From Eledone cirrhosa (Eukaryota), in assembly GCA_964016885.1 (NCBI GenBank), contig OZ024743.1, positions 317,440,001-317,504,000 of the forward strand: 64,000 nt of DNA, read 5' to 3'. Positions 8,216-18,589 of the stretch are shown here, in pieces. The translations under genes were made by a program, and so were the position numbers. Numbering within the stretch: position 1 is the first letter of the stretch; each line of letters starts with the position of its first letter. Below the pieces are notes generated by a model. The model was not told the origin of the DNA. It saw only the letters and a list, made by a program, of their open reading frames with translations, and searched no databases.

Positions 8216-8618
8216 CTATATATATATATATATATATATAAATATAGTATGATATATATATAAATATAGTATGATATATATATATATAAATATATAGTAT
8301 GATATATATATATATATAAATATATAGTATGATATATATATATATAAATATATAGTATGATATATATATATATAAATATATAGTATGATATATATATATA
8401 TATAAATATATAGTATGATATATATATATATATAAATATATAGTATGATATATATATATATAAATATATAGTATGATATATATATATATAAATATATAGT
8501 ATGATATATATATATATATAAATATATAGTATGATATATATATATAAATATATAGTATGATATATATATATATATAAATATATAGTATGATATATATATA
8601 TAAATATATAGTATGATA

Positions 8619-9187
8619 TCATCATCATCATCATCGTTTAACGTCCGTGTTCCACGCTTGCATGGGTTTGGACGGGGGTTTTCCCACTTGAGGCAAGAGT
8701 GGTTGTCTTGCTCGCATAGGACTGTCTGGCGGGTTTTCTACAGTTGGATGCCCTTCCTAACACCAACCACATTTACAGTGTGGGGCTGGGAGGTTTTTAC
8801 CGTGTTGCCTACACGGCCACATTACAGCGTGGACTGTCTGGCGGGTTTTCTACAGCTGGATGCCCTTCCTAACACCAACCACATTTACAGTGTGGGGCTG
8901 GGAGGTTTTTACCGTGTTGCCTACACGGCCACATTACAGCGTGAATGTGTGTTTTTTTGTCGTGACACCTACACGATCTCATTTGTTTCGGCCTGGATGT
9001 TGTGGGACCAACATAACTTTACATTGAAAGGGGCGGTGTGGATGGGGTGGAGGTGGTGGGACGGGGGGGGGGGGGGGGGGTGTTTTGATAGAGATGCCTA
9101 CTGACTGTAGTAGGTTTTTACTTTGTATTTAGGTAAGGCGGGTCTTCTCTATTACTGAGTACCGCCAAAGGTCTCGGTCCAGTGACA
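8619..9187 (-). mobile_element. RTE family A, 3' UTR and last codons, with an internal tandem duplication of about 110 bp
   Basis: Near-identical to 10171-10616, with a (GAT)n tail. Confidence 0.85.
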
Positions 9188-10170
9188 TGATATATATATA
9201 TATAAATATATAGTATGATATATATATATATATATATAAATATATAGTATGATATATATATATATATATATATATATATAGTATGATATATATATATATA
9301 TATATATATATATATAGTATGATATATATATATATATATATAGTATGATATATATATATATATATATATAGTATGATATATATATATATATATATAGTAT
9401 GATATATATATATATATATATAGTATGATATATATATATATATATAGTATGATATATATATATATATATAGTATGATATATATATATATATATAGTATGA
9501 TATATATATATATATATAGTATGATATATATATATATATATAGTATGATATATATATATATAGTATGATATATATATATATATATATATATATATATATA
9601 TATAGTATGATATATATATATATATATAGTATGATATATATATATATATATAGTATGATATATATATATATATATAGTATGATATATATATATATATATA
9701 TATATATATATATATATATAGTATGAGATATATATATATATATATAGTATGATATATATATATATATATAGTATGATATATATATATATAGTATGATATA
9801 TATATATATATATAGTATGATATATATATATATATATATAGTATGATATATATATATATATATAGTATGATATATATATATATATATATAGTATGATATA
9901 TATATATATATATATAGTATGATATATATATATATATATATAGTATGATATATATATATATATCTATATATATATATATAGTATGATATATATATATATA
10001 TATAGTATGATATATATATATATATATATATATAGTATGATATATATATATATATATATAGTATGATATATATATATATATATAGTATGATATATATATA
10101 TATATATATATATAGTATGATATATATATATATATATAGTATGATATATATATATAGTATGATATATATA

Positions 10171-11177
10171 TCATCATCAACGTTTAACGTCCGTGTTCCA
10201 CGCTTGCATGGGTTTGGACGGGGGTAGTCCCACTTGAGGCAAGAGTGATTGTCTTGCTCGCATAGGACTGTCTGGCAGGTTTTCTACAGTTGGATGCCCT
10301 TCCTAACACCAACCACATTTACAGTGTGGGTCTGGGAGGTTTTTACCGTGTTGCCTACACGGCCACATTACAGCGTGGACTGTGTGTTTTTTTGTCGTGA
10401 CACCTACACGATCTCATTTGTTTCGGCCTGGATGGCGCGGCACCAACATAACTTTACATAGAACGGGGTGGTGTGGATGGGGTGGGGGTGGGGGTGGTGG
10501 GACGGGGTATATTTTGTTAGAGATGCCTACTGGCTGGAGTAGGTTTTACTATATATTTAGGTAAGGCGGGTCTTCTCTGTTACTGAGTACCGCCAAAGGT
10601 CTCGGTCCAGTGACATTGTCTTGGAGAGGTGTAAGTGTGTGATGTCGGAGTTTATCAGCTCGTCCCAGGTTTTTCTAGGTCTGCCTATTCCGTGACTACC
10701 GTCTATCTTTATTGCCCTGCACTTTGTTATACAGCTATCGACTTTCATGCGCATCACGTGTCCATACCAACGTAGCCTTCTCTCGAGTAAACAACATCTG
10801 ATCCCTCTTATCTCTAATTTTTTCCTTAGTTCGTTTATGCTTTGCCGTTCACGTATATTACTGTTACACATCCAGCGGAGCATGCAAGCTTCGTTCCTCT
10901 CTAGTCTGCGTATATCCTCTGCACACAATGCCCAGGTCTCACTGCCATGCAGCATTGCTGTTCGTATGCAGGCATCGTACAACCTGCCTTTCATTTTTAG
11001 GGAGAACCCTTTAGCAGCTAATAGTGGTATAAGCTCTCTGAACTTTTTCCAACCAGTTCTGACTCTAGCTACAGTACTTTCAGAGCACCCTCCCCCACTG
11101 CTGATTTTATCGCCCAGGTAACGGAAGCTGTCCACTATTTCTATAGAACCCTCTGCGCAATTGAAAGAGCTAGTATT
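10171..11177 (-). mobile_element. 5'-truncated RTE LINE family A, followed by an inverted 3'-UTR piece (11178-11292)
   Basis: ORF 10557-11135 with FRYLG...MLHGSETW...[11 protein letters not shown]...GRPRKTW, then a ~390-bp 3' UTR and (GAT)n tail. Confidence 0.92.
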
Positions 11178-11399
11178 TCATCCAGGCCGAAACAAATGAG
11201 ATCGTGTAGGTGTCACGACAAAAAAACACACAGTCCACGCTGTAATGTGGCCGTGTAGGCAACACGGTAAAAACCTCCCAGACCCACACTGACACCCGGA
11301 TGTGGCGCATACGCAAACTGAGCACACAACACACACACAGAAACAAAATGGCGTAGGATAGAAGAAAGAAAAGGCACAGAAACGAAGAAAGGAATCCCC

Positions 11400-11444
11400 A
11401 GTCACTGAAGAGGTCACAGAGTGTGTGACGAAAGGACTATGACT
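11400..11444 (+). ncRNA. Minimal type I hammerhead ribozyme motif
   Basis: AGTCA-CTGAAGA-g-GTCACA gagtg TGTGAC-GAAA-ggac-TA-TGACT: stem I AGTCA/TGACT, canonical core, 6-bp stem II with one extra G, CUA cleavage triplet. Confidence 0.7.
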
Positions 11445-15745: not shown

Positions 15746-15955
15746 CTATATATATATATATAAAAATATAGTATGATATATATATATATACATATATATA
15801 TATATAAGAATTAAAATACTAGAGTGCATTGGAGTAAAACACACTCGTCATATTATAGAAATTACAGTATAGGATATAGCTCAATGTAATACAACAGAGC
15901 CGAAAAATTATAAAAATAGACAAAGAAGCCTTCAATACATCAAAAGTCTTTATTA

Positions 15956-15993
15956 GCCTACAATGTTTCGTCCCATTAAGGACTCATCAGGGC
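15956..15993 (-). ncRNA. Minimal type I hammerhead ribozyme with fully canonical core
   Basis: GCC-CTGATGA-GTCCT taat GGGAC-GAAA-C att G-TA-GGC followed by AATAAA. Stem I extends imperfectly (tttaattgcc/ggctaataaa). GUA cleavage triplet. Confidence 0.85.
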
Positions 15994-16082
15994 AATTAAA
16001 CAGATAAAGACTTTTGATGTATTGAAGGCTTCTTTGTCTATTTTTATAATTATATATATATATATATATATATATATATATA

Positions 16083-17430
16083 TCATCATCAACGTTTAAC
16101 GTCCGTGTTCCACGCTTGCATGGGTTTGGACGGGGGTTTTCCCACTTGAGGCAAGAGTGATTGTCTTGCTCGCATAGGACTATTTGGCGGGTTTTCTACA
16201 GCTGGATGCCCTTCCTAACACCAACCACATTTACAGTGTGGGGCTGGGAGGTTTTTACCGTGTTGCCTACACGGCCACATTACAGCGTGGACTGTGTCTA
16301 CACGATCTCATTTGTTTCGGCCTGGATGTTGTGGCACCAACATTACTTTACATTGAAAGGGGTGTGTGGATGGGTTGGGGGTGGTGGGAAGGGGGTGTAT
16401 TTTGTTAGAGATGCCTACTGACTGTAGTAGGTTTTACTTTGTATTTAGGTAAGGCGGGTCTTCTCTATTACTGAGTACCGCCAAAGATCTCGGTCCAGTG
16501 ACATTGTCTTGGAGAGGTGTAAGCGTGTGAGGTTGGAATTTATCAGGTCGTCCCAGCTTTTTCTGGGTCTGCCTACTCCGTGGCTACCGTCTATCTTTAT
16601 TGCCCTGCACTTTTTTATACAGCTGTCGTCTTTCATGCGCATCACGTGACCATACCAACGTAGCCTTCTCTCGAGTAAACAACATCTGATCCCTCTTATT
16701 TCTAATTTTTCCCTTAGTTCGTTTATGCTTTGCCGTTCACGTATATTACTATTACACATCCAGCGGAGCATGCAAGCTTCGTTCCTCTCTAGTCTGCGTA
16801 TATCCTCTGCACACAATGCCCAGGTCTCACTGACATGCAACATTGCTGTTCGTATGCAGGCATCATACAGCCTGCCTTTCATTTTTAGGGAGAACCCTTT
16901 AGCGGCTAATAGTGGTATAAGCTCTCTGAACTTTTTCCATCCAGTTCTGACTAGCTACTGTACTTTCAGAGCACCCTCCCCCACTGCTGGTTTTGTCATA
17001 TATATATATATATAAACAGTAATAGAGAAGACCCGCCTTACCTAAATACAAAGTAAAACCTACTACAGTCAGTAGGCACCTCTAACAAAATACACCCCCA
17101 TCCCACTACCCCCACCCCATCCACACCACCCCTGTCAATGTAAAGTTATGTTGGTACCAACATCCAGGCCGAAACAAATGAGGTCGTGTAGGTATCACGA
17201 CCAAAAAACACACAGTCCACGCTGTAATGTGGCCGTGTAGGCAACACGGTAAAATCCTCCCAGTTCCACACTGTAAATGTGGTTGGTGTTAGGAAGGGCA
17301 TCCAGCTGTAGAAAACCCGCCAGACAGTCCTATGCGAGCAAGACAACCACCCTTGCCTCAAGTGGGAAAACTCCCGTCCAAACCCATGCAAGCGTGGAAT
17401 ATGGACGTTAAACGATGATGATGATGATAA
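16083..17430. mobile_element. Two RTE family A copies head-to-head (16083-16995 minus; 17016-17430 plus)
   Basis: ORF 16445-16882. The second copy is the reverse complement of the 3' UTR and ends in gatgatgat. Confidence 0.9.
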
Positions 17431-18589
17431 ATATAGTATGAGATATATATATATATATATATATATATATATATATATATATAAATATAGTATGATATAT
17501 ATATATATATATATAAATATAGTATGATATATATATATATATATATATATATATAGTATGATATATATATATATATATATATATATATAGTATGATATAT
17601 ATATATATATATATATATATATAGTATGATATATATATATATATATATATATAGTATGATATATATATATATATATATATATATATAGTATGATATATAT
17701 ATATATATATATATATATATATATATATATATATATATATATATATATATAGTATGATATATATATATATATATATATATATATATATATAGTATGATAT
17801 ATATATATATATATATATATATATATATATATATATAGTATGATATATATATATATATATATATATATATATATATATAGTATGATATATATATATATAT
17901 ATATATATATATATATATAGTATGATATATATATATATATATATATATACATATATATATAGTATGATATATATATATATATATATATATATATATATAT
18001 ATAGTATGATATATATATATATATATATATATATATATAGTATGATATATATATATATATATATATATAGTATGATATATATATATATATATATATATAT
18101 ATATATATAGTATGATATATATATATATATATATATATAGTATGATATATATATATATATATATAGTATGATATATATATATATATATATAGTATGATAT
18201 ATATATATATATATATATATATATATATATAGTATGATATATATATATATATATATATATAGTATGATATATATATATATATATATATATATATATATAG
18301 TATGATATATATATATATATATATATATATAGTATGATATATATATATATATATATATATAGTATGATATATATATATATATATATATATATATATAGTA
18401 TGATATATATATATATATATATATATAGTATGATATATATATATATATATATATATATATATATATATATATCATACTATATTCAAAGCTGTCATTCTAC
18501 AAGATGTACATATTAGTAAAACAAGATTTAAACATATTTACAAAACATAATAGATGGCAAATAAACTTTTCTTTCAGAGAAGGAAGAAA

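What the first reader, a model, noticed from the sequence alone, without database searches (positions are those of the whole stretch)
8219..18483. (TA)n-GTATGA mega-array whose spacer is the reverse complement of its own flank
Seen: the unique sequence immediately right of the array is TCATACTATATT (18472-18483). Its reverse complement AATATAGTATGA is the spacer, repeated on the order of 100 times over 10 kb, including the longer AATATAGTATGA form at 8241, ~13038 and ~17430. Inference: self-complementary (TA)n ends folded back or switched template and copied 6-12 nt of flank, repeatedly or once followed by slippage. This is a telomerase-like, locus-specific birth of a satellite. Locally clustered variants (GTACGA at ~14152, 15184, 15248) show that later duplication also contributed.
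Basis: partly seen in the sequence, partly recalled or inferred. Interest (0 to 1): 0.75.

Follow-up and report, generated by a model that had tools for sequence, protein, structure and literature searches.

The report
Flank-seeded TA satellite stuffed with transposons
A TA repeat here carries 87 copies of a short piece that matches its own neighbouring DNA read backwards, likely made once when a DNA end folded back on itself and then likely multiplied by ordinary slippage while transposon fragments landed in it; interrupted TA arrays are common in this genome, so this is a clear example of known processes, not a telomerase-like system.

Summary
The flank match is real; the 10-kb mega-array is not. 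8217-18472 holds 87 same-sense spacers (clusters of 14, 36 and 28, plus 9 scattered), and 7,263 of 10,256 bases are transposon pieces. (AT)5-CATACTATATT occurs 12 times in the 3-Gb genome, 9 of them here, so spacer = reverse complement of the right flank is not chance. Single inverted copies of a tract's own flank recur elsewhere: 5 of 631 TA chain ends against 0.8 expected, two of them clear (48 and 27 nt); direct copies are commoner (23). Best reading: one fold-back or template switch at (TA)n, then local unit duplication and independent LINE, SINE, Helitron-like and MITE-like insertions. Against repeated copying from the flank: variants absent from the flank sit in blocks (13 runs against 45 expected), and a 36-unit cluster lies 8 kb from the flank. 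Interrupted TA arrays are common here (96 chains of 10 or more spacers in 1.58 Mb). Reads could neither confirm the assembly nor show an empty allele. The scan noted LINE pile-ups in TA tracts before, elsewhere in this genome; I found no note on the inverted-flank origin.

The parts
8217..18472 (.). Whole compound locus: interrupted (TA)n array with 87 same-sense spacers and 10 inserted blocks of transposon sequence
18472..18483 (+). Right flank TCATACTATATT, likely the template of the spacer; the unique sequence beyond it (18480-18595) had no other match in the genome search
8217..8619 (+). Cluster 1: 14 spacers (2 exact 12-nt flank copies, then 12 of the derived AATATATAGTATG form), median unit 28 nt
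8620..9188 (-). LINE-A 3' piece with (ATG)n tail and a 112-bp internal duplication; apparent 7-nt target duplication ATGATAT
9190..10171 (+). Cluster 2: 36 spacers (2 derived long form, 34 plain), median unit 26 nt, 2 stray G/C letters in 982 bases
10172..11178 (-). LINE-A 3' piece with open 206-aa C-terminal frame; 6 substitutions in 999 bases to its nearest sampled relative outside the array
11179..11291 (+). 113-bp inverted copy, 100% identical to 10322-10434 of the same LINE piece (likely a local switch at the LINE's 5' junction)
11292..11890 (+). Unclassified dispersed repeat (11292-11603) joined to a SINE-like element (11604-11890) whose tail resembles LINE-B; SINE label is inference
11929..13017 (.). 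Two MITE-like dispersed repeats flanked by TA runs (11929-12426, palindromic over 11929-12366; 12445-13017)
13081..14063 (-). Helitron-like non-autonomous element: 11 of 11 other loci fetched read A-CTAG at this end, and 10 of the 11 read (TA)5-GAT at the other; here the terminal GA is lost in the TA run
14104..15253 (+). Scattered derived units (AAAATATAGTATG, AAAATATAGTACG, GTACG); the pair at 14104-14156 is repeated at 15132-15188 on the far side of a MITE-like plus SINE-like block (14208-15109)
15287..15746 (-). LINE-B 3' piece, 98.3% identical to a copy at window 61135-61594
15807..16050 (.). Partly palindromic repeat between TA runs
16084..16997 (-). LINE-A 3' piece, 92% identical to 10172-11111
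17017..17428 (+). LINE-A 3' piece in the opposite sense; apparent 5-nt target duplication ATAAA on an exact 12-nt unit
17430..18471 (+). Cluster 3: 28 spacers (3 exact 12-nt copies, then 25 plain), median unit 34 nt, ending in a 40-nt TA run that forms a predicted hairpin with the flank
7364..8216 (+). Left flank: degenerate 20-bp TA-rich minisatellite; holds one direct-sense AGTATGAT near 7866

Best explanation
A (TA)n microsatellite likely gained one inverted copy of the 12 bases to its right when a DNA end inside the self-complementary TA tract folded back or switched strand, and that unit was then likely multiplied by local slippage and duplication while unrelated transposons likely inserted into the growing array one by one. 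Shown: the spacer is the exact reverse complement of the flank, all 87 copies face one way, variants sit in blocks, and 71% of the interval is dispersed-repeat sequence. Inferred: (1) a break or stalled end in (TA)n; the strand reading AATATAGTATGA(TA)n pairs on itself in the TA tract, copies 12 bases of its own flank and returns to the TA tract, which leaves flank-(TA)n-inverted copy-(TA)n; (2) the 24-34 nt unit spreads by copying its neighbours, gaining +TA, AA-duplication and T>C variants and losing the AA interruption; (3) LINEs with (ATG)n tails, SINE-like, Helitron-like and MITE-like elements insert at different times because TA tracts are their common landing sites here. The enzyme is not identified; polymerase-theta snap-back synthesis or a replication template switch would both give step 1. 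No function is implied.
For: Flank match beyond chance: 9 of 12 genome-wide matches of the 21-mer lie here; TA runs of 10 nt or more occur at 600-7,535 per Mb in 7 sampled regions, so the chance per run end is of order 1e-6 (my estimate). Single-unit stage exists: in 1.584 Mb, 5 of 631 chain ends carry an inverted copy of their own flank, null mean 0.79, P=0.002 in 1,000 shuffles; this locus was dropped by the filter and is not among the 5; the 48-nt and 27-nt cases are single-copy palindromes in the genome search. A related test gave 5 of 524 (this locus included) against 0.4. Copying from neighbours: 13 runs of variant type against 45.0 expected; unit length differs among clusters (Kruskal-Wallis p=1.7e-7). 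Independent insertions: the four LINE-A pieces differ from each other by 12-29 substitutions in 269-363 bases, and each has 3-8 of 21 outside copies closer than any copy in the array; two show short apparent target duplications. LINE-A tails abut ATATAT at 7,767 places in the genome. Known chemistry: snap-back synthesis turns inserts into inverted repeats, often primed by a TA/AT repeat (PMC5728401, passages; PMC4912351, passages); TA repeats break and are repaired by microhomology joining (PMC13645644, passages).
Against: No empty allele and no read support were obtained, so the order of events is read from one assembly. Three of the five inverted cases are short or low in complexity, and a held-out set gave 1 of 142 (the C10 array, which was picked by its spacer; null 0.4, P=0.33). 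The plain unit (59 of 87) is compatible with fresh copying from the flank, and 25 plain units lie next to the flank; under my reading the AA interruption was lost twice. Neighbouring TA lengths are barely correlated within clusters (P=0.49, 0.12, 0.048). Target duplications inside a periodic sequence are weak evidence. Human data favour inter-strand over intra-strand switches (PMC5453318, passages), so the fold-back geometry is not settled.
Confidence: 0.72

Rival explanations
1. Repeated re-templating: the palindrome made by the first copy keeps breaking or snapping back, and each round copies the flank again, adding units at the right end.
For: 65 of 87 units (59 plain + 6 exact 12-nt) are letter for letter what the flank would template; cluster 3 next to the flank has no insertion and 1 stray G/C in 1,030 bases; last unit plus flank folds into a 32-bp stem, -20.1 kcal/mol against -10.1 for TA alone.
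Against: 22 of 87 units carry variants absent from the flank, in blocks. Cluster 2 (36 units, 2 stray letters in 982 bases) lies 8 kb from the flank behind LINE pieces 3.7-4.7% from their nearest sampled relatives. The 48-nt and 27-nt inverted copies elsewhere stayed single. Arrays of the same build grow from direct-sense or flank-less spacers.
Confidence: 0.12
2. One burst: a LINE reverse transcriptase or repair polymerase wrote the whole 10 kb in a single event, jumping between the flank, its own product and many RNA or DNA templates.
For: Four of the five LINE pieces start at their tail in the + direction, as first-strand cDNA would; a 113-bp inverted self-copy sits at one 5' junction; the 16-kb C1256 array shows serial drift of units with LINE pieces in both senses.
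Against: The inserts include Helitron-like and MITE-like DNA elements with their family ends; LINE-A pieces differ in distance to their nearest sampled relatives (3 of 371 to 17 of 364 substitutions); only 6 of 30 LINE-A tails in TA have an interrupted chain on the tail side.
Confidence: 0.06
3. The spacer arose in direct sense or by point mutation (from the AGTATGAT near 7866 in the left flank, or by G insertions in TA), or as direct repeats later inverted as a block, and the flank match is secondary.
For: GTATG-type spacers exist without an inverted flank at C7, C13 and C22; direct flank copies outnumber inverted ones 23 to 5; TA tracts could mediate an inversion.
Against: The 12-nt form with its AA is confined to this locus apart from 3 unrelated flanks; the 7866 site matches 8 bases and lies 350 bp away; no spacer of the other sense remains among 87. 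An early inversion of a single direct copy cannot be told from a fold-back.
Confidence: 0.06
4. Sequencing or assembly artefact from polymerase stutter at a TA hairpin.
For: No short-read contig was seen to bridge a locus-specific junction, and 18492-18521 was uncovered in 3 of 3 contig sets.
Against: Heritable-looking variants recur at separate places (GTACG three times; AAAATATAG six times), inserts are diverged family members with family-typical ends, and similar arrays occur across chromosomes. The read tool says that a hole proves nothing, and those runs may be another individual.
Confidence: 0.04

Closest known systems
Snap-back SD-MMEJ / polymerase-theta templated insertion (PMC5728401 and PMC4912351, passages)
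   Same: A 3' end pairs on an inverted primer repeat, copies nearby flank, and rejoins by microhomology, leaving an inverted repeat at the junction; TA/AT is a frequent primer.
   Different: Reported inserts are short (median 7 bp in vitro) single scars; here the scar became the unit of an 87-copy array. The enzyme is not shown here.
Short-range template switch mutations (PMC5453318, passages)
   Same: A switch-and-return event creates a local inverted repeat from flank sequence.
   Different: That model excludes successive rounds, favours inter-strand switches, and the word microsatellite does not occur in its main text.
SaTar and TAFTA microsatellite-targeted elements of plants (PMC5907723, abstract and part 1 of 2 of the Discussion)
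   Same: Unrelated elements stacked side by side in TA microsatellites, mostly not nested, with expansion of the flanking TA.
   Different: Those are non-autonomous MULEs of plants; here an animal genome stacks LINEs, SINE-like, Helitron-like and MITE-like pieces, and the microsatellite carries a locus-specific spacer.
RTE-clade LINEs with microsatellite tails (PMC6007223, passages; PMC2887409, abstract; PMC9115989, passages)
   Same: 5'-truncated 3' pieces, short repeat tail overlapping the target by 1-2 bases, short target duplications.
   Different: The clade of these pieces was not tested by a tree; they explain the inserts, not the spacer.
Minisatellite birth by slipped-strand mispairing at non-contiguous repeats (recalled; not read here)
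   Same: Flank plus microsatellite becomes a tandem unit; 23 of 631 chain ends here show the direct-sense version.
   Different: The unit here is the inverted flank.
Telomerase (recalled)
   Same: Only the outcome: same-sense short repeats copied from a short template.
   Different: No RNA template, dedicated enzyme, fixed unit or chromosome end; units copy their neighbours' variants.

Membership tests
Snap-back / template-switch insertion | Insert is the reverse complement of sequence next to the junction | tested here: met
   12 of 12 bases, 0 bases from the TA run; 9 of 12 genome-wide matches here
Snap-back / template-switch insertion | Inverted primer repeat at the start and microhomology at the return point | tested here: met
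   (TA)n is self-complementary; the copied stretch ends in TATATT, which can re-pair in the TA tract (sequence)
Snap-back / template-switch insertion | Ancestral or empty allele without the insert | tested here: inconclusive
   No contig or read bridged the site; no second haplotype found
Snap-back / template-switch insertion | Dependence on polymerase theta or on replication | not testable with these tools
   needs genetics
Telomerase-like reiterative synthesis | Each unit copied afresh from one fixed template, so variants do not propagate | tested here: not met
   22 of 87 non-flank variants; 13 runs against 45 expected
Telomerase-like reiterative synthesis | Polar growth from one end | tested here: inconclusive
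   Cluster 3 next to the flank looks young, but so do clusters 1 and 2 far from it
Telomerase-like reiterative synthesis | At a chromosome end | tested here: not met
   Position 317.4 Mb of a 378.8-Mb contig
Continuous satellite array | Uninterrupted head-to-tail units over the stated span | tested here: not met
   7,263 of 10,256 bases are inserts
Non-LTR retrotransposon (LINE) pieces | Reverse transcriptase coding sequence, 5' truncation, simple-repeat tail | tested here: met
   A related copy in C1256 (73% to LINE-A over 715 bp) hits RVT_1 at 4.1e-23 and PHD; the three window pieces lie C-terminal and gave 0 Pfam hits
RTE clade | Placement in a reverse-transcriptase tree | not tested
Helitron (13081-14063) | 5' TC, 3' hairpin plus CTAG, insertion between A and T without duplication | tested here: met
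   A-CTAG in 11 of 11 and GA-T in 10 of 11 other loci; hairpin read by eye; the rule itself is recalled
SaTar MULEs | MULE terminal inverted repeats and 8-11 bp duplications at non-microsatellite sites | not tested
   MITE-like inserts were not classified

The most novel reading that the evidence does not exclude
In this genome (TA)n tracts act as self-priming hairpins that copy their own flank again and again, so a DNA-only, telomerase-like reaction writes locus-specific satellites of many kilobases (this locus, C10:396796, perhaps the 16-kb C1256 array) and keeps creating fresh landing sites for transposons.
Probability: 0.12. Interest if true: 0.7.

Novelty: new variant of a known kind. Interest (0 to 1): 0.3.

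Why it matters
If the best reading holds, the locus records the birth of a satellite from a single repair scar, with single-unit, 10-unit and 87-unit stages present in one genome. That links TA fragility, snap-back repair and transposon stacking in a germ-line record and gives a simple genome-wide test (spacer against flank, both senses). Each step is known, no function is implied, and interrupted TA arrays are routine in this genome, so a specialist would find it neat rather than surprising. I did not find the inverted-flank seeding of an array in print in searches, which cover only the open-access library; supplements were not looked at.

Tried and rejected
Reads: of 6 runs listed, three contig sets of one sample and two RAD-seq runs were laid. 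On 18456-18620 the contigs left 18492-18521 uncovered and the RAD run laid 0 reads; on 11100-13100 the signal was swamped by repeat copies and no listed piece bridged a junction. Neither bears on artefact or empty allele. C1256 as a second haplotype: rejected, its only matches of 93% or more to the window are transposon pieces and its left flank has no full-length partner. Spacer as a Helitron end: rejected, other copies end in (TA)5-GA, not in the spacer. The 12-mer pair as terminal inverted repeats of one composite transposon: rejected, there are 10 left copies and no shared target duplication. Local palindromes at 11929-12366 and 15907-16050 as locus-specific fold-backs: rejected for the first (a similar copy at C4:317566006), open for the second. 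Pfam on three window LINE frames: 0 of 3 hits. In one search a raw palindrome count (35 against 1.2) was dominated by arrays with a palindromic CATG spacer and was dropped. In one search, 3 of 61 rows (many redundant) were flagged inverted: this locus, C1:542230 (also direct, 4-5 nt, ambiguous) and C24:5050662 (judged spurious). A fresh replicate region was not obtained; the held-out test on loci already held was not significant. Arrays as products of LINE priming: 6 of 30 tails have a chain on the tail side, and chains also occur at 5' ends. No host gene was evident among frames of 180 aa or more in the window (read by eye, not searched).
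Full report
What is there. Between 8217 and 18472 there are 87 spacers, 84 GTATGA and 3 GTACGA, all in one sense, in clusters of 14 (8217-8619), 36 (9190-10171) and 28 (17430-18471) with 9 scattered between. TA runs make up 2,466 of 10,301 bases. Ten blocks of other sequence make up 7,263 of 10,256 bases: four 3' pieces of one LINE family (three antisense, one sense), one of a second LINE family, two SINE-like copies, a Helitron-like element, MITE-like elements and an unclassified repeat. 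All 13 segments queried have matches outside the array in the sampled sequence, one only in part. The 10-kb mega-array is therefore a transposon nest inside about 2.9 kb of interrupted microsatellite.

The flank match. TCATACTATATT occurs once in the window, directly right of the last TA run; its reverse complement occurs 10 times inside. The exact 21-mer (AT)5-CATACTATATT has 12 matches in the genome: 8 inverted copies in the array, the flank, and 3 unrelated sites, none with an inverted copy nearby. With 600-7,535 TA runs per Mb in 7 sampled regions, a chance match is of order one in a million. Six units are the exact 12-nt form, 14 have one more TA, 6 have AAAATATAG, 59 are plain and 2 are other forms; the long forms span 8241-17522, so the long form is likely ancestral.

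Is the process general? I fetched 1.584 Mb from six contigs (window included). It holds 96 TA chains of 10 or more spacers; in the first 1.464 Mb, 93 of 204 chains are dominated by one spacer. Among 631 chain ends with an informative first spacer, 5 match the inverted outer flank (null mean 0.79, P=0.002) and 23 match it in direct sense (null 0.74); this locus was removed by the filter. Two inverted cases are clear single-copy events of 48 and 27 nt, each followed by a second TA run; three are weak. A held-out set of 210,878 bases gave 1 of 142, not significant. GTATGA-spaced arrays occur at five other loci: C10 has an inverted-flank match at 7 of 8, C7, C13 and C22 have none, and C1256 lacks its right end. 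So inverted seeding is real but the minority route, and the short GTATG core does not need it.

How it grew. Variant types form 13 runs where shuffling gives 45.0 (minimum 32 in 10,000), and unit length differs among clusters (medians 28, 26, 34; p=1.7e-7), though neighbouring lengths within a cluster are barely correlated. Twenty-two units carry variants that the flank cannot template. A pair of variant units is repeated on both sides of the 14208-15109 block. Cluster 2 has 2 stray letters in 982 bases yet lies 8 kb from the flank behind LINE pieces 13 of 347 and 17 of 364 substitutions from their nearest sampled relatives; this suggests expansion far from the template, with the caveat that closer relatives may exist outside the sample. 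The four LINE-A pieces differ from each other by 12-29 substitutions and each has outside copies closer than any copy in the array, which fits independent insertions. LINE-A tails abut ATATAT at 7,767 places, so TA tracts are ordinary targets. The Helitron-like element has the family's A-CTAG junction; its other end has lost GA in the TA run.

Mechanism. Shown: the match, the single sense, the blocks of variants, the inserts. Inferred: one fold-back or strand switch at the self-complementary tract made the first inverted unit, as in snap-back SD-MMEJ (PMC5728401 and PMC4912351, passages) or short template switches (PMC5453318, passages), at a repeat type known to break (PMC13645644, passages); slippage and local duplication multiplied it; transposons inserted over time, much as plant elements stack in TA microsatellites (PMC5907723, abstract and part of Discussion) and as RTE-type LINEs pair their tails with the target (PMC6007223, passages; PMC2887409, abstract). 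I put this at 0.72. Repeated copying from the flank is not excluded for the 25 plain units beside it, and the last unit plus flank folds into a 32-bp stem; I put a truly telomerase-like process at 0.12.

What could not be shown. Public runs gave neither junction support nor an empty allele, so an artefact is argued against only by internal evidence. The enzyme, the strand geometry and the LINE clade are untested; a related LINE copy carries RVT_1 and PHD.

Verdict. Observation partly confirmed, interpretation partly supported. The parts are known processes; their combination, a repair scar that seeded a satellite, I did not find in searches. Earlier notes of this scan describe LINE pile-ups in TA tracts elsewhere in this genome and none on this place or on an inverted-flank origin. 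New variant of a known kind; interest 0.3.

Noticed in passing
G000:C1256:135247-152345 (L011-L013): A larger array of the same build: 323 GTATGA in the last 16,345 bases, units drifting serially, with pieces of several LINE families in both senses; the contig ends inside it.
   Followed up: partly
G000:C4:317595335-317595457 (L121:1335-1457) and C1:390335-390415 (L081): Single inverted copies (48 and 27 nt) of a TA tract's own flank, followed by a second TA run: the likely one-unit stage.
   Followed up: yes
G000:C10:396796-397085: Ten CATACTAT spacers in TA whose inverse matches the left flank at 7 of 8, the difference being at a CpG.
   Followed up: yes
G000:C1:397731-406650, C1:953115-963631, C1:542230-546313, C1:293502-295233: Other transposon-stuffed TA arrays, each with its own spacer (114, about 18, 32 and 23 copies); the last holds a 1.25-kb element with terminal inverted repeats.
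   Followed up: partly
G000:C1 loci L021, L024, L025, L034, L048: LINE or SINE tails often face each other across one TA tract; frequency against chance not tested.
   Followed up: no
L052 (G000:C20:7610369-7614335): Two copies of the Helitron-like element lie head to head around a short palindrome that includes flank sequence, another possible fold-back.
   Followed up: no
window 24168-28154 and 52859-57124: A 45-bp satellite (92 copies) and (CAC)n/72-bp C-rich arrays with extreme strand skew.
   Followed up: no
window 46389-49111 (-), 60787-61600 (+), 61939-62787 (-): Further retroelement-like coding remnants; not classified.
   Followed up: no
window 18596-19116 and 1144-1572: A dispersed 47-48 bp minisatellite family with many copies on other contigs.
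   Followed up: no
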